Counted from the stretch's first letter, positions 2 to 41,981 are shown. The stretch: 41,981 nt of DNA from Candidatus Saccharimonadales bacterium (GCA_035629655.1 DASPHN010000022.1:1-41981), one strand, 5' to 3'. The notes: generated by a model not told the origin, from the sequence alone. Translations and numbers: made by a program.

Positions 2-1291
2 TACAACGGGACGATCTACCCGGGCGTCTACCAGGGCGAGCGGAGCGCGACGGTCGTCACGGTCTACGAGGCGATCGGCGCGTACCGGGCGGGCAAGATC
101 ACGCTCGACGAGCTGTACGAGGTGGAGAACGTCGCCTGCCCCGGGCCGGGCGCCTGCGGCGGCCAGTACACCGCGAACACGATGGCGATGGTCGTCGAGT
201 TCCTGGGCCTCTCCCCCGCCGGACTGAACGGCATCCCGGCCGAGGATCCGGCCAAGGACGGCGCGGCACGCCAGGCCGGCACGATCGTCATGGACCTGGT
301 CCGGCGCGACCGGCGGCCCTCCTACTTCGTGACCCGCGACGCGCTCGAGGACGCCATCGCGAGCGTGGCCGCGACGGGCGGCTCCACCAACGGCGTGCTG
401 CACCTGCTGGCCATCGCCCACGAGTACGGCATCCCGCTCGACATCGACGAGTTCGGGGCCATCGCCGACCGGACGCCGCTCATCGCCGACATGCGGCCGG
501 GCGGCCGCTACACGGCCTCCGATCTCTACGACGCGGGCGGTCTCGGGCTCGTCATGCGCCAGCTGCTCCGGCGTGACGGCCTCCTCCGTGGCGACCGGCT
601 CACGGTCGACGGGCGGACCATCGCCCAGGTCGCAACGGACGCGGTCGAGACCCAGGGTCAGCAGGTCATCGTGGACATCGACGCCCCGATCAAGCCCAAC
701 GGCGGCCTGGCGATCCTGCGTGGCACGCTCGCGCCGGACGGGTGCGTGGTCAAACTGGCGGGCCACGAGCGTCGCCAGCACACCGGCCCGGCGCGTGTCT
801 TCGACTCGGAGCAGGCCTGCTATGCGGCGGTCCGCGACCGGCGGATCGTGGCCGGCGACGTCGTCGTCATCCGCTACGAGGGCCCGGTCGGCGGACCGGG
901 CATGCAGGAGATGCTGCAGGTCACGGCCGCGCTCGTCGGCGAGGGCCTGGGCGATGCCGTCGCCCTCGTCACGGACGGCCGATTCAGTGGCGGCACCCAC
1001 GGGCTGATGATCGGTCACGTGGCCCCGGAGGCTGCGCTGGGCGGCCCGATCGCCGTCGTCCGGGAGGGCGACCTCATCGAGATCGACGTCGACCGCAAGG
1101 CCCTCGACCTGCACGTGCCGCCGGAGGAGGTCGCCGCGCGGTTCGCCGAGTGGGTCGCGCCGGAGCCCCATTACACGGGTGGCGTGCTGGCCAAGTACGC
1201 GGCGCTGGTCGGGTCCGCCTCCCAGGGCGCCGTGACGACCGGCCCGCGGATGACTGCCAACCTGCGGGGACGGGGGCCGGCCTCGACGTGA
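2..1291 (+). CDS. ilvD: Dihydroxy-acid dehydratase / IlvD-Edd family dehydratase, 5-prime truncated by window edge
   Basis: Frame is open from nt 2. The translation carries IlvD/Edd hallmarks ([37 protein letters not shown]). The TGA at 1289-1291 overlaps the next GTG (GTGA). Confidence 0.9.
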
Positions 1292-2190
1292 CCCGTCGGA
1301 TCCCCATCGGCATCAAGACCTCGCCGCAGGCCGTCGACTGGCCGACGCTCGATGCTGCTTGGGCGCGCATCGGGGAGCACGAGGTCTTCGATTCGGTCTG
1401 GATGAACGACCACCTCACGGACATCGCGCACCCGACCCATGGGCCGAGCTTCGAGGCGCTCACCGCCATGGCCGCGCTGGCACACCGCGTGCCCGGGCGG
1501 ACGATCGGGCATGTCGTGCTGTCGAACACGTTTCGCCACCCGACCGTGCTGGCCAAGGCGGCGACGGTCATGGACCATGCCACCGGCGGCCGTTTCGTCG
1601 TCGGGCTCGGCGCCGGCTGGCACGAGGGTGAGCACCTCCCGCTCGGGATCCCGATGGCGCCCATGCCCGAGCGCTTCGACCGGTTCGAATCCGCGGTGTA
1701 CGTGCTCAAGGCGCTCTGGTCCGAGGCGGCGACGACGCCGCCCGGCGTCACCCGGCCCGATCCCTTCTATCCGCTCGCGGCGGCGACGAACGAGCCGCCG
1801 CCCCTGACGCCTGGTGGACCACGGCTGTGGCTCGGCGGCCAGAAGCGGCGCGGGATCGCGCTTGCCGCGGCCGTGGCCGACGGCTGGCCCCTGCCCGCGA
1901 TCGTGCAGCCCGGACAGCCGGCCGACCTGACCTACTTCGCGGAAAAGCGCGACGCGATCCTGGCCGCCCTCGATGCGGCCGGCCGGGACCCGATCACGTT
2001 CGATATCGTGGCCCAGGTCGGGACGGGCACGACCGTCGACGACCGGCGATGGGCGTTGGGTCAGGCCCGTCAGGCCGTGGAGCTCGGCGCGACGCAGGTC
2101 ATCCTCGGGATGCCCGCCATGCTCGGCGGCGGTGGCGTGGACGACGTCGCCCGGGAGATCGCGACGCCCCTGCGCGAGGCGCTCGGCTGA
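1288..2190 (+). CDS. LLM-class (luciferase-like) F420/flavin-dependent oxidoreductase
   Basis: C-terminal 300 aa of ORF 742..2190 ([35 protein letters not shown]). GTG at 1288 forms a 4-nt overlap with the ilvD stop. The upstream part of the ORF overlaps ilvD out of frame. Confidence 0.8.
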
Positions 2191-2194
2191 GGCC

Positions 2195-3379
2195 CTAGGC
2201 CGGATCCGCTTCCTCGGCGGCCGCTCGTCGGCGCACCCAGACCGTGCCGTCGAGGATGTGCCGCGCGGTCCGACCCACGGCGATCGCCGCGATCGTCGAC
2301 GGATCGGCCGGGTCGCTGGCCCGCACGACGGCATGCATCACGCCGTACGGGTGGGCGATCCGGATGGTGTCGGGCTCCGGCCGATCGGATCGCCGCCGGA
2401 CCATCTCGTCGACGATCGTGCCGGGGACGAAGGCCGCGGCGGCGGTCGCGATGGCACCGGTCGTCATGTACGAGCGATGGGCCGTCTGCATGGACATCAG
2501 CCGGCCGACGATGTCGGCATCGCCGGCCGCGATGGTCGTGCCATCGGCGGCCGGGTGGTCGACCGGGGGGCTGACGAAGCCGACCTTCGGCAGGCCCGGC
2601 GTCGTCGCCGTGGCATCGCGTCGATCGGCCACGAGCCCGAGCCGCTCGGCGATGATCGAACGCGCCTCCTCGAGCGTGTCGGTCGCCGAGGTCGCCGCCT
2701 CGATACCGGCCGGGGACTCCGTGCCGGTCAGGCCCAGGTCGGTCGCCCGCAGGAAGACGGTGGGGTTGCCTGCGTCGACGACGGAGACCGTGATCGATCG
2801 GCCGTCCGCGAGCTCCAGCGTGTCGCACGGCGAGCCGGTCGGCAGGAGCATGCCGGTCACCGAGCCGGCCGGATCATCGAACTCGAGCAGGATCCGGGCG
2901 CTCGTGCCGGGCACACCCGGGATCGCGTAGTCGCCCTCGGTCGAGGCGCGCCGGCCGACCGTCGGCACGTGGGCGACGATCACCTTCGCCGTGTTCGTGT
3001 TGTGGATGCGGACCGTGGTCAGGTCGCCGGTGGCTCGCACGAGGCCCTGATCGATCGCGAACGGCCCGACGGCCGAGCTGATGTTCCCGCAGTTGCCGCC
3101 CCAGTCGACGAGGGCGTCGGTCACGCTGACCTGCGCGAAGGTGTAGTCGACGTCGGCATCGTCGCGGGTCGGCGGCCCGATGATCGCGGCCTTGCTGGTC
3201 TGCGAGGTGGCACCGCCCAGGCCGTCGATCTGACGCACGTCGGGGCTGCCGAAGACGTCGAGCAGGATCGGCTCGATGTCGGCTCGCGCGGTCGGCAGGT
3301 CGTTCTCGAGGAAGAACACGCCACGGCTCGTCCCGCCCCGCAGGATCGAGCATCGGATCGGGACGGCCTCGTGGCTCAT
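2195..3379 (-). CDS. PrpF / 3-methylitaconate isomerase / 4-oxalomesaconate tautomerase family protein
   Basis: 394 aa. N-terminus IRCSILRGGTSRGVFF and WGGNCGNISSAVGPFA are typical of the PrpF family. AGGAGG lies 7 nt upstream of the ATG. Confidence 0.85.
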   Translation of the reverse strand: MSHEAVPIRCSILRGGTSRGVFFLENDLPTARADIEPILLDVFGSPDVRQIDGLGGATSQTSKAAIIGPPTRDDADVDYTFAQVSVTDALVDWGGNCGNISSAVGPFAIDQGLVRATGDLTTVRIHNTNTAKVIVAHVPTVGRRASTEGDYAIPGVPGTSARILLEFDDPAGSVTGMLLPTGSPCDTLELADGRSITVSVVDAGNPTVFLRATDLGLTGTESPAGIEAATSATDTLEEARSIIAERLGLVADRRDATATTPGLPKVGFVSPPVDHPAADGTTIAAGDADIVGRLMSMQTAHRSYMTTGAIATAAAAFVPGTIVDEMVRRRSDRPEPDTIRIAHPYGVMHAVVRASDPADPSTIAAIAVGRTARHILDGTVWVRRRAAAEEADPA

Positions 3380-3415: not shown

Positions 3416-4291
3416 TCACCCGCCATAGCGTGCCTCGGCGGCGTCGATCTCGGCCAGGCCGACGAGTGCCTGGCGGTCGTCCCACGACAGCATCCGGTCC
3501 TGGAGCGCGGCGGCGTCGCCGGTCGTTCGCAGCTCCGCCAGCGCATCGCGGATGGCCGCCGCGCCGACACGCAGCGCGGTATTGGCAAAGAGGACGATCC
3601 GGTATCCGAACGCCCCGAGCTCGTCGACCGTGGCGAGGGGCGTCCGGCCACCCTCGACCATGTTCGCCATGAGTGGCACCGGGAGGCGGGCGGGCAGGGC
3701 CGCGAGGTCGTCCCGCGTCGGAGGCGCCTCGATGAACACGGCATCGGCGCCCGCCTCGGCGAAGGCCAGGCCGCGGTCGATCGCCGCCTCGAGCCCATGC
3801 GTGGCGATCGCGTCGGTCCTGGCGATGACCACGAGCGAGGCGTCGATGCGCGCGTCGAGGACGGCCCGGAGCTTGCCCAGCATCTCGGGCAGCGCGACGA
3901 CCTCCTTGCCGTCGAAGTGGCCGCAGCGCTTTGGGAAGACCTGGTCCTCGAGCTGCAGTGCCGCAGCCCCGGCCCGCTCGAAGGCGCGGGTCGCGCGCTG
4001 GGCATTGATCGCGTTGCCGAAGCCGGTGTCCATGTCGGCGACGACCGGGATGTCGACGACGTCACAGATGCGGGCTACCTGGTCGGCGGCCTCGGTCATC
4101 GTGGTGAGCCCGACGTCTGGCCGGCCGAGCAGGGCATTGGCGATCCCCGCGCCCGTGGCGTACACCGCGTCGTAGCCCACGGTGACCGCGATCCGGGCCA
4201 CCAGCGCATCGCTGCAGCCGGGCAGCACGAGTGGCTCGGGCCGGGCGAGCAGGGCCCGAAGGCGGACGCCCGGGGCGTCGGCGCTGGTCAC
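3416..4291 (-). CDS. Isocitrate lyase/PEP mutase superfamily lyase (2-methylisocitrate-lyase / dimethylmalate-lyase-like)
   Basis: 291 aa with ADMDTGFGN, LQLEDQVFPKRCGHFDGK and IARTDA motifs. GTG start. Confidence 0.85.
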   Translation of the reverse strand: MTSADAPGVRLRALLARPEPLVLPGCSDALVARIAVTVGYDAVYATGAGIANALLGRPDVGLTTMTEAADQVARICDVVDIPVVADMDTGFGNAINAQRATRAFERAGAAALQLEDQVFPKRCGHFDGKEVVALPEMLGKLRAVLDARIDASLVVIARTDAIATHGLEAAIDRGLAFAEAGADAVFIEAPPTRDDLAALPARLPVPLMANMVEGGRTPLATVDELGAFGYRIVLFANTALRVGAAAIRDALAELRTTGDAAALQDRMLSWDDRQALVGLAEIDAAEARYGG

Positions 4292-4307
4292 GGCGTCGCG
4301 ACCGCGG

Positions 4308-5189
4308 TCAGGCCGCGTAGCGCGGGAGGACGTCCCGCGCGAAGCGCTCGAGGACGCCGCGATCGGTGGTCAGCAGGATGACGTTGAGCAGATCGACGCC
4401 GGCATCCTGGTAGGCATCGAGCGCGGCAACGACATCGTCGTTCGTTCCGGTGTGCACGAGCTCGGGAAACGGCTTGCGCAGGGTGCCGTAATAGCGCAGC
4501 AGCAGGCGTTCGCCTTCCTCGAGGTCCGCCTGGTCCGTCGCGGGGAGGACGTAGGCCAGCGCCCCGACGGGAAACTCGGTCTTGCCCGCTGCGGTGGCCG
4601 CGGCGCGGATGGCCGGGACGCGCTCGCGGATCATGTCGACGCCCGGGGCGCCGAAGAGGTAGGCCTGACCGTAGGTCGCCGCGCGCTCGATGGCGGCGGG
4701 CGTGTAGCCACCGACCCAGAACGGCGGGTGAGGCTGCTGGAGCGACGCGGGCCCGGCGACCTGGCCGCTCTCGCGCGAGGCGGCGGCATCCGCCCAGAGT
4801 CCGATCAGCCGCTGGAGCTGGCCCTCGAAGATCCGTCCGCGGCCGGTCGTCGTTCGACCGAAGAGGCCGAAATCCTCGGGCCGGGAGCCCAGCGCCATGC
4901 CCAGGTCGAGGCGACCCTCCGAGACCTGGTCCAGGACGCTCGCCTGCTTGAACACGAGCGCCTCGTCGCGCATCGGGAGCAGCAGGGCGCCGGTCAGCAG
5001 GCGGACCCGGCTCGTGACCGGTGCCACGGCCAGCAGCGCCGCCATCGGCTCCCACGTGTCGTGGAATGGGCGGTCGTGCACGGCCAGGGCGGCGAAGCCG
5101 GCTTCGTCCGCAAACCTCGCCCAGTCCAGGACATCGCCACCCGAAACGACGTTCCCGAGCCACGTCGGCAGACCGATCCCGAGCCTCAC
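4308..5189 (-). CDS. LLM-class flavin/F420-dependent oxidoreductase
   Basis: C-terminal 293 aa of ORF 4308..5546 look luciferase-like. GTG at 5189 is preceded by AGGAGG with 5-nt spacing. The longer ORF start has no support. Confidence 0.75.
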   Translation of the reverse strand: MRLGIGLPTWLGNVVSGGDVLDWARFADEAGFAALAVHDRPFHDTWEPMAALLAVAPVTSRVRLLTGALLLPMRDEALVFKQASVLDQVSEGRLDLGMALGSRPEDFGLFGRTTTGRGRIFEGQLQRLIGLWADAAASRESGQVAGPASLQQPHPPFWVGGYTPAAIERAATYGQAYLFGAPGVDMIRERVPAIRAAATAAGKTEFPVGALAYVLPATDQADLEEGERLLLRYYGTLRKPFPELVHTGTNDDVVAALDAYQDAGVDLLNVILLTTDRGVLERFARDVLPRYAA

Positions 5190-37172: not shown

Positions 37173-37230
37173 ACCCGGTGGTGAAGGGCGACGAGTGCTC
37201 GACCTCGCCACGATCGTCAAGGAGGAGACC

Positions 37231-38376
37231 ATGGAAGCTCGGATCGGAACCCGCCGCTGGTGGCGGAGTCTGGCCCTCGGTGTGGGGATGGCGATGTTCA
37301 TCGCCGCGTGCTCCACACCCGGGACGAGCCAGGCGCCGTCGACCGCGCCAACGACCGCAGCCTCGGAGGCCGCTCCGTCGGCTGGCGCCTCGGAGGCTGC
37401 TCCGTCGGCTGGCGCCTCGGAGGCCGCTCCGTCGGCCAGCGCCTCGGGCGAGGCCCTGGCCGAGGTCTGCGCCGCGGCCGTGACCGAGGGCAAGCTCGTC
37501 CACTGGCACAACCACTCGGACAACTTCAGCCAGGTCATCGACGCGTTCAAGGCCGCCTACCCGGGCATCGAGGTCGAGGACCTCGTCCTCAGCCCCGACG
37601 AGGCCGCTCAGCGCATCCTGACCGAGATCGCGGCCGGTCGGCCGCCGACCCCGGATCTCACCGCGACCGGGCTCGATGTCTTCAAGCCGCTCATCGACCG
37701 CGGCGCGGCCGAGACCGACGTCGATTGGGCCGCCCTGGGCGTGCCGGCCGACGTGCTGCACCAGGACAACTTCGTCCGCATCCATCGCATCGCGCTCGGG
37801 CTCGGCTACAACACCGACGCGCTGACGCCCGACCAGCTGCCGAACACCTGGGAGGAGCTCGTCGACGCCAAGTGGGCCGGCCGGGTCATCGTCGACCCGC
37901 GCGGTCGCCCGTTCGACACCATCGGCCTCGCCTGGGGCAACGAGAAGACGCTCGACTACGTCCAGCGCCTCAAGGACATCGCCCAGCCGCTCGTCATCGA
38001 GGGCGGCACGGCCGGCCTCGTGGCCGTGGCCGGCGGCGAAGCGGACATCACCACCGGTGGCCGTTCGGCGGAGACCCTCGAGCAGCAGGCCGAGGGCGCC
38101 CCGATCGGCATCAAGTACCTCGATGTCGTGAGCACCATCGACAACTACAACGTGCCGCTCAAGGACGCGGCGCACCCGAACGCGGCGAAGTGCTGGATCG
38201 GGTGGTTCTCCTCGGAGGGCCAGGCGCTCTACGACGAGATCGAGTTCAAGACCAACGAGGCGGTCCCCGTGGACGCCCCTGCGGGCGCGACGATCGTCAC
38301 GATCGAGACGCCGGAGCAGGCCGACACGGTCAAGGACCTCGGCACGGAGATCGGACGGATCTGGACGGGCGGTTGA
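37231..38376 (+). CDS. Extracellular solute-binding lipoprotein (Fe3+/thiamine/polyamine-type family 1 SBP)
   Basis: AAGGAGGAG lies upstream of ATG 37231. N-terminal RRWWRS followed by lipobox FIAAC, then an Ala/Ser/Pro repeat linker and the SBP body. Confidence 0.85.
   Translation: MEARIGTRRWWRSLALGVGMAMFIAACSTPGTSQAPSTAPTTAASEAAPSAGASEAAPSAGASEAAPSASASGEALAEVCAAAVTEGKLVHWHNHSDNFSQVIDAFKAAYPGIEVEDLVLSPDEAAQRILTEIAAGRPPTPDLTATGLDVFKPLIDRGAAETDVDWAALGVPADVLHQDNFVRIHRIALGLGYNTDALTPDQLPNTWEELVDAKWAGRVIVDPRGRPFDTIGLAWGNEKTLDYVQRLKDIAQPLVIEGGTAGLVAVAGGEADITTGGRSAETLEQQAEGAPIGIKYLDVVSTIDNYNVPLKDAAHPNAAKCWIGWFSSEGQALYDEIEFKTNEAVPVDAPAGATIVTIETPEQADTVKDLGTEIGRIWTGG
37360..37440 (+). repeat. In-frame 27-bp tandem repeat x3 (ASEAAPSAG) in the SBP linker
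   Basis: Units at 37360-37386, 37387-37413 and 37414-37440 differ by 1-3 nt. Confidence 0.95.
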
Positions 38377-38458: not shown

Positions 38459-38485
38459 CGCGTGGGTGCGCCGCGCCGGCCGCCC

Positions 38486-39859
38486 ATGAGCGACGCGACG
38501 GTCGGGGGGCCGTCGACGGCCCAGCCCGACGGGGACTGGCGCCGCGGATTCATCCTGCAGCTCCTCATCGCCGGCATCTCGGTCACCGCCATCCAGGCCG
38601 GCCGCCCGATGGTCACCTACCGGTCCCTCGAGCTTGGTGCCACGCCCCTCGAGATCGGCCTCGTGGTCTCGGCCTTCTCGATCCTGCCGGTGCTGACCGC
38701 CGTCGCCATCGGGCGTTGGATCGATCGCATCGGCGAAGCGTGGTTCCTCGTCGCGGCCATGGCGATGATCGCCTCGGGCAGCTTGGTGACCGCGTTCGCC
38801 GGGACGCTCCTGCTGCTCGCCGTCGGCAACGCGATCACCGGCTTCGGCCAGATCACCAGCCTCGTCGCGGGCCAGACGATGATCGCCAACCGGGGGCCGC
38901 GCGACCGGCGTGAGGACCGCTACGGCTGGTACTCGACGGTCGCCTCGCTGGGCCAGCTGCTGGGGCCGGCCATCGCCGCGATCCTGGTCGGCGGTGCGAT
39001 CGCGAGCGCTGCCGAGATCGGCGGCATCCTGCCAGAGGGCGCGGACAACCCGGTCGCCCCGGTCTTCCTGTTCGGCGCGCTTGCGGGGGCCGTCTGCGTC
39101 GTGCTGGCCCTCATGCTCCCCCGGCGACGGCCGCCACGGCCCGCCCACGTCGAGGGCGATGCCCCGTCGATGGGGCTTCGAGCTGCCACCTCGCAGGTCC
39201 TCCGTCGCCCGGGGATGGTCTCGGCGATGCTCGTGAGCGTCACCGTCATCTCGTCGGTCGACGTGCTCATCGCATACCTGCCGGTCTACGGCCAGGCGGC
39301 CGGTCTCTCGGTCGAGACGGTCGCGATCCTGCTCTCGGTGCGAGCCGGCGCGTCACTCATCTCGCGGATCTTCATGACCCGGCTGATCGACGTGCTGGGC
39401 CGGACCCGGCTGCTCACGATCAGCATGGTGATGGCCGGGGTCTCCGTCGCGGCCCTGCCGTTCATCACGTCGGTCCCGGTCCTGTTCCTGCTCATGGTCC
39501 TCATCGGACTCGGGCTCGGCCTCGGTCAGCCGATGACCATCGCCTGGGTCGCCAACCGCTCACCGCGCAACGAGCGGGCGCTCGCCCTCGGTGTCCGGTT
39601 GACCGGCAATCGCGCGGCCCTGCTGATCGTGCCGACGATCATGGGCGCGATCGCGGGGGCCAGCGGCATCACCGCGATCTGGCTCGTCCTGGCGGCCTTC
39701 CTGGGCTTCGGGGCGAACGTCGCGCGGCGAGCCCCGCTGGACGACCCTCCGAGTCGCCCGTCCGATCCGACGAGCCCCGTGCAGCCCGTGGCGCAGCCGG
39801 AACCGTCGCGGCCCGGGTCGCGGACCGGCATGCCTGGTGAGGTCGAGCTGCCCGCCTGA
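38486..39859 (+). CDS. MFS transporter
   Basis: About 12 hydrophobic helices and a GRWIDRIG loop (the MFS D-R-x-G-R-like motif). Start at ATG 38486 or GTG 38462. Confidence 0.85.
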   Translation: MSDATVGGPSTAQPDGDWRRGFILQLLIAGISVTAIQAGRPMVTYRSLELGATPLEIGLVVSAFSILPVLTAVAIGRWIDRIGEAWFLVAAMAMIASGSLVTAFAGTLLLLAVGNAITGFGQITSLVAGQTMIANRGPRDRREDRYGWYSTVASLGQLLGPAIAAILVGGAIASAAEIGGILPEGADNPVAPVFLFGALAGAVCVVLALMLPRRRPPRPAHVEGDAPSMGLRAATSQVLRRPGMVSAMLVSVTVISSVDVLIAYLPVYGQAAGLSVETVAILLSVRAGASLISRIFMTRLIDVLGRTRLLTISMVMAGVSVAALPFITSVPVLFLLMVLIGLGLGLGQPMTIAWVANRSPRNERALALGVRLTGNRAALLIVPTIMGAIAGASGITAIWLVLAAFLGFGANVARRAPLDDPPSRPSDPTSPVQPVAQPEPSRPGSRTGMPGEVELPA

Positions 39860-39875
39860 CCGGCCGGCGCGATCC

Positions 39876-40430
39876 TCAGTCGGCGGCGGTCTCGCCCTCG
39901 GCCGCGCCGGGACCGACGCGGCCCTTGGCGTCCATCACCGCGTCGAGGATCTTCACGTAGCTCCCGCAGCGGCATAGGTTCCCGGCGAGGTAGTGCTTGG
40001 CCTCGTCACGGGTCGGGTCCGGCTGCTCCTCGAGCAGGGCCTTCGTCGCGAGGAGGAAGCCCGGCGTGCAGTACGAGCACTGGAACGCGGTGTGGTCCAC
40101 GTAGGCCTGCTGGATCGGGTGCAGCGAGCCGTCCGCGCCCTCCAGGCCCTCGACGGTCACGATGTCGCGGCCCTCGGCCAGGCCCGCGAGGAGGAGGCAG
40201 CCGGACACGGGCGCGCCGTCGAGCAGGACCGTGCACGCGCCGCACATCCCGACGCCGCAGCCCTCGCGCGGCCCGGTCAGCCCGAGCTCGCCGCGGAGCA
40301 CCTCGAGGAGCGTGTGGTGCGTCCGGGCACGGACCGTGTGGTCGCGGCCGTTGACGTGGAGGGTCAGCGTCGACTTGCCCTCGGCGTCCATCGGTGCCGG
40401 ATCGGTCCCGGTCGTGGGTTGCATCGTCAT
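39876..40430 (-). CDS. [2Fe-2S] small subunit of a second xanthine-dehydrogenase-family hydroxylase (set 2)
   Basis: CGVGMCGACTVLLDG and QCSYCTPG...NLCRCGSY. ATGA overlap with the large-subunit stop. Confidence 0.92.
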   Translation of the reverse strand: MTMQPTTGTDPAPMDAEGKSTLTLHVNGRDHTVRARTHHTLLEVLRGELGLTGPREGCGVGMCGACTVLLDGAPVSGCLLLAGLAEGRDIVTVEGLEGADGSLHPIQQAYVDHTAFQCSYCTPGFLLATKALLEEQPDPTRDEAKHYLAGNLCRCGSYVKILDAVMDAKGRVGPGAAEGETAAD

Positions 40431-41981
40431 GGCGCCGGGGCCTCCTCGCTGGCACGCGCCCGCAGGCCGCGCAGCACCTTCTCGGGGGTGATGGGCAGAT
40501 CCGTGATGCGGACGCCGGTCGCCCGGTAGACCGCGTTGCCGATGGCCGGCATCACGGGCGGCAACGACGTCTCGCCGATGCCATGGATGTCGTTGGCCTC
40601 GAGATGCTCGAGGACGTCGGGATGCATGTCGTCGGGCAGGTCGACGATGCTCGCGATCATGTAGTCGGCGAGGTTGCCGTTCTGGAGCTGGCCGTTGTCG
40701 AAGATCATGTCCTCGAACAGGGCCTGGCCCAGCCCGAACGCGATGTTGCCCTCGGTCTGGAGCTCGGCCTGGACCGGGTTGATGATCCGGCCGGCGTAGA
40801 CCCCGGCGTGGTAACGCAGGACGTCGACCTTGCCCGTCTCGAGATCGACCTCGACCTCCGCCGCGCCTGCCGCCTGGTGCCAGTGGACCGAGCCGATGCC
40901 CTGGCCCGTCTCCGGGTCGAGCCCGCCCTCCGAACGGAAGGTCGAGCTGCCCAGGAGGTTGCCCGAGCGAGAGCGGCGCACGAGCTCGCCGAAGTCCACC
41001 GCCCGGTCCGGGGTGCCCTTCACGCGTACGACACCGTCGACGAGCTCCAGGTCGTCGGCGTCGATCTCGAGCTCCTCGGCCGCCAGATCGCGCAACTGAC
41101 CACGCACGTCGTCCACGGCGCCCATGATCGCGGTGCCCATCGCGTGGGTCGTCCGGCTCGAGCTCGTCTGCTGGTCGTACGGCGTGATGTCGGTGTCCGG
41201 CGCCGTGACATTGACCCGGTCGACCGGGATGCCGAGGCGCTCGGCGGCGAAGAGGGCCATCGAGGTCTGCATCCCCTGCCCCATCTCGACCGAGCTCGTC
41301 AGGACGTCGAGGCTGCTGTCGTCGTTGAGCTTCACGGAGGCCGTCGAGGTGGACGGCGTGACCGTGCCCTTGATGATGCAGCTGATGCCCTTGGCCCGGA
41401 CCTTGGAGCCGTTCCGCGCCGGCGCTTCGGCGTTGTCCCAGCCGATCCAGGTCGCCGCCCGATCGAGCAGCTCCTTGAAGCGCGCATCGAACATCGGCTC
41501 GCCGGTCATGACCGTCTGGCCGTCCTCGAGCAGGTTCTGCATGCGGAAGGCGAACGGGTCCCAGCCCATCTGCTCGGCGATCATGTCCATCTGGGTCTCG
41601 TAGGCCCACGCCGCCTGGCTGACGCCGTATCCGCGGAATGCCCCGGCCGGGACGATGTTCGTGTAGACCGCGTACGAATCCACCCACACATTCGGGATGA
41701 AGTGCGGGCCGCCCGTCCCGTAGCCACCGTTCTTGATGAGCCGTGGCCCGATGTCGCCGTATGCCCCGGTGTTGAAGTGGCACTCGCTCTGGCGCGCGAT
41801 GATCGTCCCGTCCCGCTTGACGCCCGTGCGGAGCTTGATCCGCACGCCGTGCTTGGTGATGGTGACGAACTCCTCCTCGCGGGTCAGGTGGAGGCGGACC
41901 GGCTTGCGAGCGAAGAACGACAGCATCGCGGTGACGGGCTCGATCTTCGGGTAGGTCTTCGCCCCGTAGCCGCCGCCGAGC
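40427..41981 (-). CDS. Molybdopterin-binding large subunit, set 2 (N-terminus beyond window end)
   Basis: The frame stays open to nt 41980 (LGGGYGAKTYPKIEPV precedes the listed Met). YTNIVPAGAFRGYG and GIGETSLPPVMPAIGNAV motifs. Confidence 0.9.
   Translation of the reverse strand, partial: LGGGYGAKTYPKIEPVTAMLSFFARKPVRLHLTREEEFVTITKHGVRIKLRTGVKRDGTIIARQSECHFNTGAYGDIGPRLIKNGGYGTGGPHFIPNVWVDSYAVYTNIVPAGAFRGYGVSQAAWAYETQMDMIAEQMGWDPFAFRMQNLLEDGQTVMTGEPMFDARFKELLDRAATWIGWDNAEAPARNGSKVRAKGISCIIKGTVTPSTSTASVKLNDDSSLDVLTSSVEMGQGMQTSMALFAAERLGIPVDRVNVTAPDTDITPYDQQTSSSRTTHAMGTAIMGAVDDVRGQLRDLAAEELEIDADDLELVDGVVRVKGTPDRAVDFGELVRRSRSGNLLGSSTFRSEGGLDPETGQGIGSVHWHQAAGAAEVEVDLETGKVDVLRYHAGVYAGRIINPVQAELQTEGNIAFGLGQALFEDMIFDNGQLQNGNLADYMIASIVDLPDDMHPDVLEHLEANDIHGIGETSLPPVMPAIGNAVYRATGVRITDLPITPEKVLRGLRARASEEAPAP

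What the first reader, a model, noticed from the sequence alone, without database searches (positions are those of the whole stretch)
1288..41981. Very large catabolic island combining two Mo-hydroxylases, two UbiD decarboxylases, an AMDase-like enzyme, ring-cleavage and amide-hydrolysis genes: candidate undescribed N-heteroaromatic carboxylate pathway
The gene content matches the logic of aerobic pyridine/pyrimidine-carboxylate degradation:
- hydroxylation adjacent to ring N by xanthine-DH-family enzymes (two sets here, as in two-step hydroxylation routes for nicotinate/isonicotinate-type substrates)
- decarboxylation (two UbiD paralogs and an AMDase-like protein)
- ring cleavage (bicupin)
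- tautomerisation (4-OT)
- amide hydrolysis (an isochorismatase-type enzyme like NicF/RutB, a cyclic amidohydrolase, asparaginase)
- nitrogen release (aspartate dehydrogenase, DAO-type FAD oxidase)

Five transport systems are also present.

This combination does not match any described nic, pic, rut or oxidative pyrimidine cluster that I know. In particular I saw no NicC/NicX-type or barbiturase-type genes. UbiD enzymes occupy the position where those pathways use flavin monooxygenases or Zn-decarboxylases.
Basis: inference. Interest (0 to 1): 0.75.

Follow-up and report, generated by a model that had tools for sequence, protein, structure and literature searches.

The report
Uncharacterised N-heterocycle acid breakdown island
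This 42-kb contig, probably from an uncultured soil Chloroflexota bacterium, carries a conserved and apparently co-regulated set of genes that most likely breaks down carboxylated nitrogen-ring compounds by adding oxygen from water, removing CO2 with a prenylated-flavin enzyme and opening the ring by hydrolysis; this enzyme combination matches no described pathway I could find, and the substrate is unknown.

Summary
Forty genes fill the window. They include two xanthine-dehydrogenase-family Mo hydroxylases, two UbiD decarboxylases, an AMDase-like protein, a bicupin, a 4-OT tautomerase, an isochorismatase-type hydrolase, a hydantoinase/allantoinase-like amidohydrolase, asparaginase, aspartate dehydrogenase and five transporters.

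The proposed refutation test (co-localisation) is passed for a core. In about 20 Chloroflexota/Actinomycetota MAG loci, UbiD#2 sits next to the amidohydrolase (17/20) and recurs with Mo hydroxylase #2. That hydroxylase is translationally coupled to UbiD#2 in two loci, and in one locus UbiX lies in the same operon. The same loci also carry the NMT1-type ABC importer, GntR, asparaginase, a PrpF-like/PrpB-like pair, isochorismatase, AspDH and the bicupin, in shuffled order.

A 16-bp palindrome occurs in five promoter regions of the window (0.33 expected) and recurs in relatives. This suggests one GntR regulon.

The island is modular, with at least two mobile sub-operons. IlvD and LLM1 have no synteny support.

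No enzyme reaches an equivalog cut-off for nic, rut or other characterised pathways. The exceptions are PyrE, AspDH and a marginal allantoinase hit. The invariant triad suggests hydroxylate, then decarboxylate, then hydrolyse. The substrate is unresolved: an orotate-like pyrimidine, a pyridine carboxylate or a purine derivative.

The "Saccharimonadales" label is almost certainly a binning error.

Verdict: new variant of a known kind, moderately interesting.

The parts
2..1291 (+). IlvD/Edd-family dehydratase (5' end off contig). Overlaps the next gene by 4 nt. Probably not part of the conserved cluster.
   Evidence: Pfam ILVD_EDD_N/C. 0/41 related loci carry a homologue near UbiD#2.
1288..2190 (+). 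LLM1, a luciferase-like (F420/FMN) oxidoreductase. Membership of the cluster is doubtful.
   Evidence: PF00296. TIGR03560 145.7 bits, below the cut-off of 231. No synteny support.
2195..3379 (-). PrpF-family allylic isomerase/tautomerase. Closest to E. barkeri 3-methylitaconate isomerase.
   Evidence: PF04303. PDB 3g7k 347 bits, against PrpF 250 and LigU 211. NCBIfam OMA tautomerase 333 and PrpF 291, both below the 440 cut-off. Present in 8/20 related loci.
3416..4291 (-). PEP-mutase/isocitrate-lyase superfamily C-C lyase (PrpB-like).
   Evidence: PF13714. PrpB 279 bits, below the cut-off of 354. PDB hits: methylisocitrate lyase 201, petal death protein 180, oxaloacetate acetylhydrolase 175, dimethylmalate lyase 171. 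Present in 6/20 loci, always next to the PrpF-like gene.
4308..5189 (-). LLM2, a luciferase-like (F420/FMN) oxidoreductase or monooxygenase. The start is probably the GTG at 5189.
   Evidence: PF00296. Start analysis with a GGAGG upstream. Homologues in L007, L008, L040 and L058-61.
5243..5258 (.). Operator-like 16-bp imperfect palindrome (GTATGCGAATGCACAC) between the LLM2 operon and AspDH.
5325..6128 (+). L-aspartate dehydrogenase (NadX family).
   Evidence: PF01958/PF03447. NF009828 201 bits, above the cut-off of 177. Next to the isochorismatase gene in L005 and L039.
6385..6714 (-). Small ABM-like protein.
   Evidence: Weak PF03992 hit. Homologues in L008 and L040.
6804..6819 (.). Operator-like palindrome (GTATACAATCGGATAC) between ABM and sm1-DHOD-like.
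6869..7096 (+). sm1, a conserved 75-aa protein with no known family.
   Evidence: No Pfam hit. Homologues beside EamA/UbiD#1 in L007 and L008.
7155..8246 (+). Divergent DHOD/DPD-family FMN enzyme (candidate ring ene-reductase/dehydrogenase).
   Evidence: PF01180. PyrD 149 bits, below the cut-off of 269. The alignment to 1ep1 keeps the N-x-S-C-x-N catalytic Cys motif and the ring-binding Asn residues. 77-81% homologues sit directly upstream of UbiX/Mo#2 in L011 and L013.
8261..9349 (-). DUF262 (GmrSD_N-only) protein, last gene of the UbiD#1 operon.
   Evidence: PF03235 over residues 23-169 only, with no nuclease domain. Next to the bicupin in L007, L010 and L066.
9369..9596 (-). sm2, a conserved Cys-rich 75-aa protein.
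   Evidence: No Pfam hit. Homologues in L013 and L065.
9596..10702 (-). DAO-family FAD amine oxidoreductase (ThiO/sarcosine-oxidase-like).
   Evidence: PF01266. ThiO 111 bits, below the cut-off of 251. Same operon position in L065 (54%).
10734..10937 (-). 4-oxalocrotonate-tautomerase-family protein.
   Evidence: PF01361. Same position in L065 (63%).
10959..12122 (-). Bicupin with both metal motifs and a His/Gly-rich linker. Function unresolved (possible dioxygenase).
   Evidence: Two Cupin_2 domains. HxH..E motifs seen in both halves of the sequence. 28 bits to gentisate 1,2-dioxygenase. AF2 mean pLDDT 51. Homologues in L007, L010, L013, L058-61 and L065.
12208..13605 (-). UbiD#1, a prFMN-dependent decarboxylase closest to the 2,5-furandicarboxylate decarboxylase HmfF.
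   Evidence: TIGR00148 308.8 bits, above the cut-off of 244.85. PDB 6h6v 277 bits. Catalytic motifs present. 51-81% homologues in L007, L008, L013, L040, L062 and L065. Adjacent to UbiD#2 in 17/21 Binatia-type loci.
13712..14569 (-). EamA/DMT transporter, first gene of the UbiD#1 operon.
   Evidence: PF00892. Conserved beside UbiD#1.
14770..14785 (.). Operator-like palindrome (GTATGCGATTGTATCC) between the EamA-UbiD#1 operon and the AMDase-like gene.
14849..15580 (+). AMDase/Asp-Glu-racemase-superfamily protein with a single catalytic Cys (decarboxylase-like pattern).
   Evidence: PF17645. PDB AMDase 52 bits, maleate isomerase 33 bits. The alignment shows the Cys188 equivalent kept and the Gly74 equivalent as Gly. 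Present in 5/20 loci plus L065.
15628..16422 (-). SDR oxidoreductase, last gene of the ABC importer operon.
   Evidence: PF13561. Same position in L009, L011, L012 and L065.
16532..19950 (-). NMT1/THI5(TauA/SsuA)-type ABC importer: binding protein 19054-19950, permeases 18225-19070 and 16532-17368, ATPase 17365-18255.
   Evidence: Pfam. Conserved next to UbiD#2/Mo#2 in Chloroflexota-type loci (binding protein in 8/20) and in Binatia-type loci (ATPase and permeases in 10-11/21 at 45% identity or more; the binding proteins there are only 26-30% identical).
20358..21074 (+). GntR/FCD (FadR-type) regulator, the candidate binder of the palindrome.
   Evidence: PF00392 + PF07729. Present in 8/20 loci plus L058 and L065.
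21157..21172 (.). Weaker operator-like site upstream of asparaginase.
   Evidence: PWM score 14.1.
21224..22225 (+). Type II-like L-asparaginase.
   Evidence: PF00710/PF17763. TIGR00520 310.1 bits against a cut-off of 314.3. Present in 9/20 loci plus L058 and L065 (78-80%).
22265..22813 (-). PyrE-type orotate phosphoribosyltransferase.
   Evidence: TIGR00336 130.8 bits, above the cut-off of 106.8. In-cluster homologues in L001 (68%) and L065 (71%, inside the UbiD#1 operon).
22951..23658 (+). Isochorismatase-family cysteine hydrolase (N-carbamoylsarcosine amidase / NicF / RutB-like).
   Evidence: PF00857. PDB hits: CSHase 95 bits, NicF 3ot4 93 bits, Ami 4l07 82 bits, RutB 37 bits. The nucleophile Cys in TSGCVRAT is conserved. 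Present in 7/20 loci.
23695..24456 (-). TauE/SafE-family anion permease, divergent from UbiD#2.
   Evidence: PF01925. Conserved upstream of UbiD#2. Four paralogues around the UbiD#2 homologue in L063.
24511..24526 (.). Operator-like palindrome (GTATCCAATCGCATAC) between TauE and UbiD#2.
24684..26195 (+). UbiD#2, a prFMN-dependent decarboxylase closest to the phenazine-1-carboxylate decarboxylase PhdA. Anchor of the conserved cluster.
   Evidence: TIGR00148 277.5 bits, above the cut-off of 244.85. PDB 7pda 352 bits, HudA 192 bits. Motifs present. The NCBI start gives 503 aa.
26280..27656 (+). Cyclic amidohydrolase (hydantoinase/allantoinase/dihydroorotase-like), the constant neighbour of UbiD#2.
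   Evidence: PF01979. TIGR03178 364.5 bits against a cut-off of 357.85, and pyrC_multi 329. PDB L-hydantoinase 1gkr 321 bits. The HxH, K, H, H and D metal ligands are present. Adjacent to UbiD#2 in 17/20 loci, with overlapping stop/start codons in L058 and L062.
28070..32302 (-). Mo hydroxylase #1 operon: CoxS-like 31793-32302, CoxM-like FAD subunit 30930-31796, CoxL-like Mo subunit 28579-30933, CoxG/SRPBCC 28070-28525.
   Evidence: Pfam. The catalytic Glu (AAGE) is present and the CODH AYRCSFR loop is absent. No equivalog cut-off is reached. 57-64% homologues in L002, L007, L039 and L058-61.
32395..34152 (+). ThDP-dependent enzyme of unknown specificity that travels with Mo hydroxylase #1.
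   Evidence: TPP_enzyme_N/M/C. PRK08327 266 bits, below the cut-off of 456. Homologues in L002, L007 and L010.
34194..34209 (.). Operator-like palindrome (GTATGCGATAGCATGC) upstream of the second ABC transporter.
34232..38376 (+). Second ABC importer: ATPase with a TOBE domain, fused double permease, and an SBP_bac_1 binding protein.
   Evidence: Pfam. Homologues in L004, L010 and L039.
38462..39859 (+). MFS transporter.
   Evidence: PF07690. Follows Amidohyd-CoxG in 9/20 loci.
39876..41980 (-). Mo hydroxylase #2 (truncated by the contig end): [2Fe-2S] subunit 39876-40391 and Mo subunit 40427-41980.
   Evidence: Pfam. Catalytic Glu (GIGE) present. A full-length proxy from L004 (82% identical) scores 361 bits to 4-HBCR alpha and 252 + 144 bits to the two halves of E. 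barkeri nicotinate dehydrogenase. CoxS2 stop/start overlaps UbiD#2 by 4 nt in L011 and L062, and lies directly upstream of it in L009-L014.

Best explanation
The window is a modular catabolic island, apparently controlled by a GntR-type regulator. It most likely comes from a high-GC soil Chloroflexota bacterium (Limnocylindria-like) and degrades carboxylated N-heteroaromatic compounds without committed ring oxygenases in its core.

**Proposed core sequence**
1. The acid is taken up by an NMT1/TauA-type ABC system and/or by the TauE, EamA and MFS permeases.
2. One or two xanthine-dehydrogenase-family Mo hydroxylases insert OH from water next to a ring nitrogen. This turns the ring into an electron-rich lactam or imide.
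3. A prFMN-dependent UbiD decarboxylase removes a ring carboxylate that the new oxo group has activated. UbiD#2 does this in the core. UbiD#1 acts in a second funnel operon.
4. The hydantoinase/allantoinase/dihydroorotase-like amidohydrolase encoded immediately downstream of UbiD#2 opens the lactam, imide or ureide ring hydrolytically. In some lineages a DHOD/DPD-like flavoenzyme reduces the ring first.
5. An isochorismatase-type cysteine hydrolase and an asparaginase remove carbamoyl or amide nitrogen.
6. Aspartate dehydrogenase, the PrpF-like isomerase/tautomerase and the PrpB-like lyase convert the resulting C4-C6 amino or keto diacid to central metabolites.

**Shown:** gene content, intact catalytic motifs, conserved neighbourhoods, translational coupling and the shared operator-like motif.

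**Inferred:** the reaction order, every substrate and the identity of the regulator.

**My favoured specific version (about 0.35):** the central intermediate is an alpha-carboxy lactam of the orotate or 6-hydroxypicolinate type, and the products are Asn/Asp. The reasons are that the cluster repeatedly contains paralogues of three consecutive pyrimidine-biosynthesis enzymes (DHOase-like, DHOD-like, PyrE) together with asparaginase and AspDH, and that it encodes more N-releasing enzymes than a single-nitrogen ring needs.
For: - **Gene content and motifs:**
- **Nearest solved relatives of the UbiDs** are heteroaromatic-acid decarboxylases: HmfF 277 bits and PhdA 352 bits.
- **Mechanistic fit:** UbiD heteroaromatic decarboxylation is proposed to proceed by electrophilic aromatic substitution, and so needs electron-rich rings (PMC7976604). 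This fits hydroxylation before decarboxylation.
- **Neighbourhood conservation:**
  - Amidohyd is adjacent to UbiD#2 in 17/20 loci.
  - CoxM-MoL2-CoxS2 lies directly upstream of UbiD#2 in L009-L014. CoxS2 and UbiD#2 overlap by 4 nt in L011 and L062.
  - UbiD#2 and Amidohyd overlap in L058 and L062.
  - UbiX lies inside the L011 operon.
- **Compact cluster in L058-61** holds both Mo hydroxylases, LLM2, GntR, the bicupin, CoxG, UbiD#2-Amidohyd and asparaginase within 19 kb.
- **L065** keeps EamA-UbiD#1-bicupin-4OT-DAO-PyrE-sm2 as one operon, next to the ABC-SDR operon, the AMDase-like gene and GntR-asparaginase.
- **L062** has amidohydrolase-isochorismatase-RidA, a RutB/RutC-like pair, upstream of Mo#2-UbiD#2-Amidohyd.
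- **Operator-like motif:** five sites in promoter regions against 0.33 expected, with 0/100 shuffles reaching five. Related loci hold 11 PWM hits against 0.85 expected, and 7 of the 11 lie in the 11% of DNA that is non-coding.
- **DHOD-like protein** keeps the catalytic Cys and the ring-binding Asn residues.
- **PyrE** passes its curated cut-off and is in-cluster in three genomes.
- **Transporter family:** NMT1/TauA-type binding-protein genes are linked to oxidised-purine metabolism by the xanthine riboswitch (PMC7373994).
Against: - No substrate is known for any protein here. All assignments apart from PyrE, AspDH and (marginally) allantoinase fall below the curated family cut-offs.
- The DHOD-like gene occurs in only 2 of 20 related loci, and PyrE in 2. 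The orotate-type version therefore rests on few genomes.
- Asparaginase, AspDH and the PrpF/PrpB-like pair could simply be a nitrogen or amino-acid utilisation module that happens to be co-regulated.
- The island also carries possible oxygen-dependent enzymes (bicupin, two LLMs, DAO), so 'oxygenase-independent' may hold only for the core.
- Binatia-type loci have the UbiD pair, the Mo hydroxylases and the importer but no amidohydrolase within 10 kb.
- The best single PDB hit of MoL2 is 4-hydroxybenzoyl-CoA reductase.
- UbiX is missing from the window.
- Many loci are truncated by contig ends, so the co-occurrence counts are lower bounds. They are also anchored on UbiD#2, which biases what can be seen.
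Confidence: 0.55

Rival explanations
1. Pyridine-carboxylate version. The island degrades nicotinate, isonicotinate, picolinate or pyridine dicarboxylates. Two Mo hydroxylases produce a 2,6-dihydroxypyridine carboxylate, as in Bacillus niacini or Mycobacterium INA1. UbiD removes the carboxylate non-oxidatively, in place of NicC or PicC. The resulting cyclic imide (glutaconimide type) is either hydrolysed by the imidase-like amidohydrolase, or hydroxylated and cleaved (LLM + bicupin) to maleamate. Maleamate is then processed by the NicF-like hydrolase and the AMDase/maleate-isomerase-like protein.
For: - Two Mo hydroxylases sit in one cluster.
- The summed score of MoL2 to the split E. barkeri nicotinate dehydrogenase (252 + 144 bits) exceeds any other hit.
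- The isochorismatase protein scores 93 bits to NicF and 82 bits to Ami.
- An alpha/beta hydrolase (a NicD-like role) lies next to the bicupin or the AMDase-like gene in L010-L012.
- The PrpF-like protein is closest to Mii, and the PrpB-like protein is related to dimethylmalate lyase, both from the nicotinate fermentation.
- B. niacini uses two Mo hydroxylases and has nicF/nicE homologues in a cluster that is otherwise uncharacterised (PMC4256190).
- Hydrolytic opening after ring saturation is known for nicotinate (PMC9304392).
Against: - A one-nitrogen ring does not explain the number of N-releasing enzymes: ureidohydrolase-like, asparaginase, AspDH and DAO, plus RidA and a second amidohydrolase in relatives.
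- The AMDase-like protein has a single catalytic Cys, whereas maleate isomerases use two.
- PyrE and the DHOD/DHOase-like proteins point to pyrimidine-type chemistry.
- No B12 mutase, enamidase or Hnr homologue is present.
Confidence: 0.3
2. Mosaic explanation. The window is a catabolic 'hot spot' in which several unrelated operons lie side by side: amino-acid and amide utilisation, an aromatic-acid decarboxylase operon, Mo-dependent dehydrogenases and transporters. There is no single pathway.
For: - Gene order is strongly shuffled between genomes.
- UbiD#1 lies within 10 kb of UbiD#2 in only 4/20 Chloroflexota-type loci.
- IlvD and LLM1 never co-occur with UbiD#2.
- The bicupin + DUF262 pair stands alone in L066.
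- Binatia-type loci lack the hydrolases.
Against: - The same roughly 20 families re-associate in many different orders and across phyla. Re-association in varied orders is the signature of functional linkage.
- Mo#2, UbiD#2 and Amidohyd are translationally coupled.
- A shared palindrome lies in five promoter regions spanning the modules and recurs in relatives.
Confidence: 0.15
3. Purine version. Mo hydroxylases convert purines to xanthine. The amidohydrolase opens the pyrimidine ring of xanthine to give 4-ureido-5-imidazolecarboxylate. The isochorismatase-type hydrolase removes the ureido group. UbiD#2 decarboxylates 4-amino-5-imidazolecarboxylate. Further hydrolysis gives formiminoglycine and then glycine, which the ThiO-like DAO oxidises. 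This is the classical clostridial route. My recollection is that its genes are still largely unassigned (my own knowledge, not checked here).
For: - XDH-family enzymes occur in 2-3 paralogues.
- The amidohydrolase gets an allantoinase/DHOase-like assignment.
- The hydrolase is ureidohydrolase-like.
- A second amidohydrolase paralogue and RidA are present in L011 and L062.
- The best family hit of DAO is the glycine oxidase ThiO.
- NMT1/TauA-type binding proteins are tied to xanthine and urate by a riboswitch.
Against: - No Mo subunit reaches an XDH equivalog cut-off.
- No formiminotransferase, uricase or other downstream purine gene is present.
- It does not explain asparaginase, AspDH, the PrpF/PrpB-like pair, the DHOD-like enzyme, PyrE or the bicupin.
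- DAO is not conserved near UbiD#2.
Confidence: 0.1
4. Non-nitrogen aromatic-acid version. The UbiDs decarboxylate furan, phthalate or hydroxybenzoate-type acids. The Mo enzymes act as aldehyde oxidoreductases or as 4-hydroxybenzoyl-CoA/furoyl-CoA-type enzymes. The nitrogen-handling genes are unrelated neighbours.
For: - UbiD#1 is closest to HmfF.
- The top PDB hit of MoL2 is 4-HBCR.
- The UbiD#2 homologue in A. aromaticum EbN1 (46%) lies beside the phthaloyl-CoA decarboxylase cluster.
- The related cluster in P. caribensis contains an AMP-dependent ligase.
Against: - There is no CoA ligase or CoA transferase in the window or in the Chloroflexota loci examined.
- The invariant partner of UbiD#2 is a cyclic amidohydrolase.
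- Amidases and AspDH are consistently co-located.
Confidence: 0.08

Closest known systems
Bacillus niacini nicotinate pathway (two Mo hydroxylases, then 2,6-dihydroxynicotinate, then 2,3,6-trihydroxypyridine, then maleamate)
   Same: Two XDH-family hydroxylases sit in one cluster. NicF-like and NicE-superfamily genes are present. It is a soil bacterium. The gene cluster is itself largely uncharacterised (PMC4256190).
   Different: No UbiD or hydantoinase-like enzyme has been reported for B. niacini. Here the AMDase-like protein has a single Cys. Regulators differ: TetR/IclR there, GntR here. No sequence comparison was possible with these tools.
Eubacterium barkeri / Azorhizobium caulinodans reductive-hydrolytic nicotinate route
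   Same: Mo hydroxylation is followed by ring reduction and hydrolytic ring opening. MoL2 resembles NdhL/NdhM. The PrpF-like protein is closest to Mii (347 bits). The PrpB-like lyase is related to dimethylmalate lyase.
   Different: There is no Hnr, enamidase, Hgd/Hmd, B12-dependent 2-methyleneglutarate mutase or DmdAB. Ring opening would use a hydantoinase/allantoinase-like enzyme. UbiD decarboxylases are added.
Pseudomonas putida nic and Alcaligenes faecalis pic clusters
   Same: A Mo hydroxylase acts first. A decarboxylation step follows hydroxylation. A NicF-type amidase is present.
   Different: NicC, NicX/PicD, PicB and PicC (Amidohydro_2) are absent from the window. UbiD takes the place of the flavin monooxygenase or the Zn decarboxylase. 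The hydroxylases here are three-subunit CoxSML-type enzymes rather than NicAB with a cytochrome c domain.
Pyrimidine catabolism (reductive Pyd/PreTA; Rut; Clostridium oroticum orotate fermentation)
   Same: A DPD/DHOD-like flavoenzyme, a DHPase/DHOase-like amidohydrolase and a RutB/CSHase-like ureidohydrolase are present. Relatives add RidA (RutC-like) and an alpha/beta hydrolase. SDR, PyrE, and Asp as the plausible product also fit.
   Different: No protein reaches the RutA, RutB, PydB or PyrC/PyrD cut-offs. There is no beta-ureidopropionase. Mo hydroxylases and UbiD are not part of any of these pathways.
hmf cluster of Cupriavidus basilensis (HmfFG decarboxylase + HmfABC Mo dehydrogenase)
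   Same: It is the only described system I know of that pairs a UbiD/UbiX decarboxylase with an XDH-family Mo enzyme for a heteroaromatic dicarboxylate. UbiD#1 is HmfF-like.
   Different: HmfABC acts on furoyl-CoA, and no CoA ligase (HmfD) or HmfE is present here. The cluster here is rich in C-N hydrolases.

Membership tests
UbiD family of prFMN-dependent (de)carboxylases | UbiD_N/UbiD/UbiD_C architecture, score above the TIGR00148 cut-off, and the E-R-E catalytic network and Mn/prFMN-binding motifs. | tested here: met
   Both proteins have all three Pfam domains. TIGR00148 scores are 308.8 and 277.5, above the cut-off of 244.85. N-x-G-x-[FY]-R-x-Q and EGP[FY]GE are present. The motif definitions come from my knowledge of Fdc1/UbiD.
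UbiD family of prFMN-dependent (de)carboxylases | A UbiX flavin prenyltransferase is available to make prFMN. | tested here: inconclusive
   There is no UbiX homologue in the window (tblastn). A PF02441 UbiX gene lies inside the orthologous operon of L011. The rest of the genome is not available.
Xanthine-dehydrogenase-family Mo hydroxylases (hydroxylase type, not CO dehydrogenase) | [2Fe-2S] + FAD + MoCo subunits, a catalytic Glu near the C-terminus, and absence of the CODH VAYRCSFR loop. | tested here: met
   Pfam domains. AAGE (CoxL) and GIGE (MoL2) are present and there is no AYRC motif. CODH equivalog scores lie far below the cut-off. The FAD subunit of set #2 lies off the contig but is present in relatives.
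P. putida nic cluster (NicABCDEFX) | NicC 6-hydroxynicotinate 3-monooxygenase and NicX 2,5-dihydroxypyridine dioxygenase. | tested here: not met
   None of the 40 proteins hits a FAD_binding_3 or NicX-type family.
P. putida nic cluster (NicABCDEFX) | NicF maleamate amidohydrolase and NicE maleate isomerase (two catalytic Cys). | tested here: inconclusive
   The isochorismatase protein scores 93 bits to NicF (3ot4/3uao) but equally to N-carbamoylsarcosine amidase. The AMDase-like protein has only one of the two Cys.
E. barkeri nicotinate fermentation cluster | Enamidase, 6-hydroxynicotinate reductase, B12-dependent 2-methyleneglutarate mutase, Mii and Dml. | tested here: not met
   Only Mii-like (347 bits) and Dml-related (171 bits) proteins are present. 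No B12 mutase or Hnr family hit was found. Among solved structures the amidohydrolase is closest to L-hydantoinase and allantoinase, and enamidase is not among the 60 best matches shown.
Rut pyrimidine pathway | RutA (LLM monooxygenase) and RutB equivalogs. | tested here: not met
   RutA 28.3 bits against a cut-off of 498. RutB 34.6 bits against a cut-off of 378.
Oxidative pyrimidine pathway | Barbiturase (AtzD/TrzD family). | tested here: not met
   No such Pfam hit among the 40 proteins.
De novo pyrimidine enzymes PyrC / PyrD / PyrE | Scores above the curated equivalog cut-offs. | tested here: inconclusive
   PyrE is met (130.8, above 106.8). The PyrD-like protein is not met (149, below 269). 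The amidohydrolase passes the broad pyrC_multi subfamily_domain model (329, above 279) and narrowly the allantoinase model TIGR03178 (364.5, above 357.85), but none of the specific dihydroorotase equivalogs.
Methylcitrate cycle PrpB / PrpF | Equivalog scores, and the presence of PrpC and PrpD/AcnD. | tested here: not met
   PrpB 279, below 354. PrpF 291, below 440.55. There is no citrate-synthase or aconitase-family gene in the window.
hmf furan pathway | HmfF + HmfG (UbiX) + HmfABC + furoyl-CoA synthetase HmfD. | tested here: not met
   UbiD#1 is HmfF-like (277 bits) and Mo enzymes are present, but there is no AMP-binding ligase and no UbiX in the window.
GntR/FadR (FCD) regulon | The regulator binds a palindromic operator repeated before the controlled operons. 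| not testable with these tools
   A palindrome is present in five promoter regions, with one weaker site, and is conserved in relatives. Binding itself needs EMSA or footprinting.

The most novel reading that the evidence does not exclude
The invariant triad (Mo hydroxylase, UbiD#2 with UbiX, hydantoinase-like amidohydrolase) is a previously undescribed, O2-independent 'hydroxylate, decarboxylate, hydrolyse' strategy for mineralising carboxylated N-heteroaromatics. It is widespread in uncultured soil Chloroflexota (Limnocylindria), Actinomycetota and Binatia. UbiD#2 would catalyse a new reaction class: decarboxylation of a hydroxylated diazine or pyridine carboxylate. The pathway would converge on an orotate-type intermediate that is both catabolised to Asp/Asn and salvaged into nucleotides by the in-cluster PyrE.
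Probability: 0.2. Interest if true: 0.8.

Novelty: new variant of a known kind. Interest (0 to 1): 0.55.

Why it matters
If the core triad works as proposed, three things follow.
- It would add a new substrate class to the small set of characterised UbiD enzymes, which are sought after as reversible (de)carboxylation biocatalysts.
- It would show how abundant but uncultured soil lineages (Limnocylindria, Binatia) recycle nitrogen-rich heteroaromatic acids without oxygenases.
- It could supply candidate genes for old biochemical pathways whose genes, as far as I know (my own knowledge), have not been assigned: Bacillus-type nicotinate, isonicotinate/citrazinate and clostridial xanthine degradation.

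The UbiD#2 family is common in metagenomes. The search found 2,672 proteins at E<=1e-50, and the 120 best-scoring 90%-identity clusters are all at least 67% identical to it. None of them has any annotation beyond 'UbiD family decarboxylase' or the automated '4-hydroxy-3-polyprenylbenzoate decarboxylase'.

The practical limit is that everything beyond gene content, synteny and the operator motif is inference.

Tried and rejected
- **Literature.** I ran ten searches, covering UbiD with picolinate, pyridine dicarboxylates and Mo hydroxylases, and also dipicolinate, quinolinate, isonicotinate/citrazinate and B. niacini. No described pathway combines UbiD with a Mo hydroxylase for N-heterocycles. 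The library is open-access only, so this is absence of evidence.
- **Dipicolinate dip cluster.** Rejected as a match. It is monooxygenase-based, and deleting the molybdenum-cofactor genes did not abolish dipicolinate degradation.
- **Simple palindrome scan of intergenic regions.** This gave nothing shared. The motif emerged only from a mismatch-tolerant k-mer count.
- **Rfam (E<=1) and tRNA scans.** No riboswitch or RNA gene was found that could have named the ligand.
- **Bicupin.** The PDB sequence search gave only 28 bits to gentisate dioxygenase. AF2 with a 31-sequence alignment gave a mean pLDDT of 51, so I ran no fold search. Its function stays open.
- **Extending the contig.** An exact-match look-up of the CoxS2 protein found nothing.
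- **Heteromeric UbiD idea (as in phenylphosphate carboxylase).** The two UbiDs are adjacent in Binatia-type loci. In Chloroflexota-type loci UbiD#1 is within 10 kb of UbiD#2 in only 4/20, so an obligate complex is unlikely there.
- **Second amidohydrolase in L011.** I first read it as a deaminase from its HutF_N hit. It is in fact a 31%-identical paralogue of the cyclic amidohydrolase.
- **Flavin/lumichrome, thiamine-pyrimidine, ectoine, quinolinate and kynurenate scenarios.** I considered all of them. None explains more genes than the versions listed, and none could be tested here.

Full report
**1. What is in the window**

The window is 70% G+C throughout. Most mechanically listed ORFs are therefore spurious. 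Calling genes by third-position G+C gives 40 genes that tile the window almost without gaps.

They also add several it did not list:
- a PyrE-type phosphoribosyltransferase (22265-22813; TIGR00336 130.8 bits, cut-off 106.8)
- a divergent DHOD/DPD-family flavoenzyme (7155-8246)
- a PrpF-family isomerase and a PrpB-like lyase (2195-4291)
- two luciferase-like oxidoreductases
- a ThDP enzyme
- a DUF262 protein
- two conserved 75-aa proteins

Mo hydroxylase #2 is cut by the right end of the contig. Its FAD subunit lies just beyond in relatives.

None of the 40 proteins hits a NicC, NicX or barbiturase family. Catalytic motifs are intact in both UbiDs, both Mo subunits (catalytic Glu present, no CO-dehydrogenase loop), the binuclear-metal amidohydrolase and the cysteine hydrolase.

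**2. Where it comes from**

Exact look-up shows the window is an entire 41,981-bp contig of a TPA MAG labelled 'Candidatus Saccharimonadales bacterium'. The closest relatives of UbiD#2 (70-81% identity), and of nearly every neighbouring gene, are in 'Ca. Limnocylindria/Limnocylindrales' and other Chloroflexota MAGs, with a few in Actinomycetota. Those loci have the same 68-71% G+C.

Saccharimonadia are small-genome, lower-GC episymbionts without such metabolism (my own knowledge). The contig is therefore almost certainly misbinned. Contigs from two other metagenomes reproduce 2.7-5.4 kb of the window at 98-100% identity.

**3. Is the co-localisation conserved?**

I fetched 53 loci around UbiD#2 relatives and mapped all window proteins onto them.

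In the 20 Chloroflexota/Actinomycetota loci, counting hits of at least 45% identity within 10 kb, and with many loci truncated:

| Gene | Loci (of 20) |
|---|---|
| Cyclic amidohydrolase (immediately downstream of UbiD#2) | 17 |
| CoxS2 (Mo hydroxylase #2) | 13 |
| CoxG | 10 |
| MoL2 (Mo hydroxylase #2) | 9 |
| Asparaginase | 9 |
| MFS | 9 |
| PrpF-like | 8 |
| GntR | 8 |
| NMT1-type binding protein | 8 |
| Isochorismatase | 7 |
| PrpB-like | 6 |
| AMDase-like | 5 |
| UbiD#1 / EamA / SDR | 4 each |

Gene order differs from genome to genome, but the same families re-associate. Four arrangements are especially informative.
- **L011** has one same-strand operon: CoxG, DHOD-like, UbiX, CoxM, MoL2, CoxS2, UbiD#2, amidohydrolase, ABC importer, SDR, then a second amidohydrolase. 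Start and stop codons overlap between CoxS2 and UbiD#2.
- **L058-L061**, from another organism, pack asparaginase, Mo hydroxylase #1, LLM2, GntR, the bicupin, CoxG, UbiD#2-amidohydrolase (overlapping) and Mo hydroxylase #2 into 19 kb.
- **L062** places amidohydrolase-isochorismatase-RidA upstream of Mo#2-UbiD#2-amidohydrolase. It adds two more MoL2 paralogues and a UbiD#1-like gene.
- **L065** keeps the window's operon EamA-UbiD#1-bicupin-4OT-DAO-(PyrE)-sm2 as a unit, next to the ABC-SDR operon, the AMDase-like gene and GntR-asparaginase.

In 21 loci from Binatia and other phyla (53-56% identity), the core shrinks to UbiD#1-UbiD#2 side by side, an extra Mo subunit, CoxM-MoL2-CoxS2 and the NMT1-type importer. 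One locus also has a third UbiD and an Amidohydro_2 protein.

IlvD and LLM1 never co-occur with the cluster. The island is therefore real but modular. Module B is TauE | UbiD#2-amidohydrolase with Mo#2. Module A is EamA-UbiD#1-bicupin-4OT-DAO. Around them sit an importer/SDR/AMDase-like unit, a GntR-asparaginase-PrpF/PrpB-like-isochorismatase-AspDH unit, and Mo#1 with the ThDP enzyme.

**4. Evidence for co-regulation**

A mismatch-tolerant k-mer count over intergenic regions found one motif. Its 11-nt core, allowing at most one mismatch, occurs five times in the window against 0.33 expected, and 0 of 100 shuffles reached five.

All five sites lie in promoter-bearing intergenic regions, four of them between divergent operons. 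They extend to a 16-bp imperfect palindrome, GTAT[G/C]C-GATT-G[G/C/T]ATAC:
- LLM2-PrpB-like-PrpF-like <-> AspDH
- ABM <-> sm1-DHOD-like
- EamA-UbiD#1 operon <-> AMDase-like
- TauE <-> UbiD#2-amidohydrolase
- upstream of the second ABC importer

A matrix scan adds a weaker site upstream of asparaginase.

In the 20 related loci, the matrix finds 11 sites against 0.85 in shuffles (maximum 3). Seven of these lie in the 11% of sequence that is non-coding, for example upstream of CoxM, the NMT1 binding protein, CoxS2, asparaginase and the ThDP enzyme.

GTATAC-type half-sites are typical of FadR-type GntR regulators. One example is DipR of the dipicolinate cluster, which binds GWATAC (PMC11472048). 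The in-cluster GntR/FCD protein is therefore the obvious candidate binder, but that is inference.

**5. What the enzymes resemble**

- **UbiD#1** is closest to the 2,5-furandicarboxylate decarboxylase HmfF (277 bits).
- **UbiD#2** is closest to the phenazine-1-carboxylate decarboxylase PhdA (352 bits), then to the pyrrole-2-carboxylate decarboxylase HudA. All three act on heteroaromatic acids.
- UbiD chemistry on heteroaromatics is proposed to go through electrophilic aromatic substitution and to favour electron-rich rings (PMC7976604). This argues that hydroxylation precedes decarboxylation.
- **MoL2**, via a full-length 82% proxy, scores 361 bits to 4-hydroxybenzoyl-CoA reductase. It scores 252 + 144 bits to the two halves of E. 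barkeri nicotinate dehydrogenase.
- **The amidohydrolase** is nearest L-hydantoinase (321 bits) and allantoinase (276 bits).
- **The isochorismatase-type protein** is equally near N-carbamoylsarcosine amidase and the maleamate amidohydrolases NicF and Ami. It is more distant from RutB.
- **The AMDase-like protein** keeps only one of the two Cys used by racemases and maleate isomerases.
- **The PrpF-like protein** is closest to the nicotinate-fermentation enzyme Mii (347 bits). **The lyase** is PrpB-like.
- **The DHOD-like protein** keeps the catalytic Cys motif and the ring-binding Asn residues.
- **The bicupin** has both metal motifs but no informative relative.

Apart from PyrE, AspDH and a marginal allantoinase hit, nothing reaches a curated equivalog cut-off.

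**6. Most likely mechanism**

The invariant, translationally coupled triad supports a four-step core: uptake, hydroxylation with water-derived oxygen, prFMN-dependent decarboxylation of the activated ring, and hydrolytic opening of the resulting lactam, imide or ureide. Some lineages would reduce the ring first with the DHOD/DPD-like enzyme. Deamidation and entry into central metabolism follow.

I put 0.55 on this general scheme. Gene content, synteny, coupling and the motif are shown. Reaction order and substrates are inferred.

Within the scheme, I favour (about 0.35) an alpha-carboxy-lactam intermediate of the orotate or 6-hydroxypicolinate type that yields Asn/Asp. Three observations point that way.
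- DHOase-like, DHOD-like and PyrE genes recur in the cluster. PyrE is in-cluster in three genomes, and once lies inside the UbiD#1 operon.
- Asparaginase and AspDH are among the most constant accessory genes.
- There are more N-releasing enzymes than a one-nitrogen ring needs.

A pyridine-carboxylate version of the Bacillus niacini type is nearly as good (0.3). The purine, non-nitrogen aromatic and 'mosaic' alternatives are weaker.

**7. Comparison with known systems, and novelty**

The cluster fails the defining features of the nic, pic, rut, oxidative-pyrimidine, hmf, methylcitrate and E. barkeri clusters (see the membership table). It borrows logic from several of them.

Known nicotinate routes open the ring in one of two ways. 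P. putida and Bacillus do it oxidatively. E. barkeri, A. caulinodans and A. nidulans do it hydrolytically after partial saturation (PMC9304392). B. niacini uses two Mo hydroxylases, and its cluster is still uncharacterised (PMC4256190).

The only described pairing of UbiD/UbiX with an XDH-family enzyme that I know of is the furan hmf pathway (my own knowledge). That pathway works through CoA esters, which are absent here.

Ten open-access literature searches found no description of a Mo hydroxylase + UbiD + hydantoinase-like pathway.

I therefore rate the finding a new variant of a known kind. It is a catabolic gene cluster for N-heterocycles built from known families in an undescribed combination.

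It is common in metagenomes. The UbiD#2 search found 2,672 proteins at E<=1e-50, and the best 120 clusters are all at least 67% identical to UbiD#2. The bicupin search found 589 homologues. At high identity the cluster is restricted to uncultured lineages.

More distant relatives of the UbiD#2/Mo hydroxylase/CoxG association exist in the culturable Paraburkholderia caribensis MBA4. Another UbiD#2 relative lies next to the phthalate cluster of A. aromaticum EbN1.

**8. Verdict**

- **Observation:** confirmed.
- **Interpretation:** partly supported. The undescribed N-heteroaromatic-acid catabolic system is plausible and passes the synteny test. However, it is modular rather than one 40-kb pathway. 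Its best-supported ring-opening step is hydrolytic rather than bicupin-dependent. The substrate remains unknown.
- **Interest:** 0.55.

Noticed in passing
whole window (1-41981): The contig is deposited as 'Candidatus Saccharimonadales bacterium' (proteins HYH91745-HYH91767, locus tags VD763_012xx). Its 70% G+C, its gene content and its best homologues (70-89% identity, all Limnocylindria/Chloroflexota) indicate a misbinned Chloroflexota contig.
   Followed up: partly
window 5243-5258, 6804-6819, 14770-14785, 24511-24526, 34194-34209 (weaker: 21157-21172): A 16-bp imperfect palindrome, GTAT[G/C]C-GATT-G[G/C/T]ATAC, occurs in five promoter regions. It is enriched about 15-fold over chance and recurs at promoter-like positions in related loci. 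It is probably the operator of the in-cluster GntR/FCD regulator.
   Followed up: yes
window 22265-22813; L001 ~7850; L065 12620-13192: A PyrE-type orotate phosphoribosyltransferase that passes its curated cut-off is a recurrent member of this catabolic cluster. In L065 it lies inside the UbiD#1-bicupin-4OT-DAO operon. That is an unusual place for a nucleotide-biosynthesis enzyme.
   Followed up: partly
window 8261-9349; L007, L010, L066 11186-12268: A DUF262 (GmrSD_N-only) protein with no nuclease domain is repeatedly encoded next to the bicupin. In L066 the bicupin + DUF262 pair stands alone beside an integrase gene. This suggests a two-gene unit whose role is unknown.
   Followed up: partly
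window 10959-12122 (residues ~205-255): The bicupin carries a His/Gly-rich low-complexity linker (GHDGHGHGDHGGGGGH...) between its two cupin domains. Both domains keep HxH...E metal motifs. The linker is present but variable across 31 homologues.
   Followed up: partly
window 6869-7096 and 9369-9596: Two 75-aa proteins have no family assignment but are conserved in relatives. sm1 sits beside EamA/UbiD#1 in L007 and L008. sm2 is Cys-rich (CxxC...C...CxC) and closes the UbiD#1 operon in L065 and the window.
   Followed up: no
L059 12163-15141 (GCA_009772855.1, WNGE01000078.1): In this assembly UbiD#2 and the amidohydrolase are called as a single 992-aa protein. In the sister contigs L058 and L060 they are two genes overlapping by 4 nt. 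This is either a frameshift or assembly error, or a natural fusion.
   Followed up: no
L063 1758-7022: Four TauE/SafE paralogues and an EamA transporter surround a 70%-identical UbiD#2 homologue and a MoL2-like gene. This suggests that this permease family carries the UbiD#2 substrate or product rather than sulfite.
   Followed up: no
L054 (Aromatoleum aromaticum EbN1 plasmid 2, 74091-75605): The best match to UbiD#2 among plasmid records, in a cultured bacterium (46% identity), lies with an ABC importer of the same family, a porin and a DMT transporter. It sits between two copies of the UbiX-UbiD unit of what I take, from memory, to be the anaerobic phthalate (phthaloyl-CoA decarboxylase) cluster. 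Its function is unannotated.
   Followed up: partly
window (absence); L011 1590-2204: No UbiX flavin prenyltransferase is encoded in the 42-kb window although it holds two UbiD genes. In L011 a UbiX gene sits inside the orthologous operon, between the DHOD-like gene and CoxM.
   Followed up: yes
L009 12791-16237: In an Actinomycetes MAG the ABC-SDR unit is followed by three genes: a creatinase/M24 (DoeA-like), an ornithine-cyclodeaminase-family (EutC-like) and an MmgE/PrpD-family gene. This is reminiscent of ectoine/hydroxyectoine utilisation genes. The window's AMDase-like protein also gives a weak EutA hit (69.6 bits).
   Followed up: no
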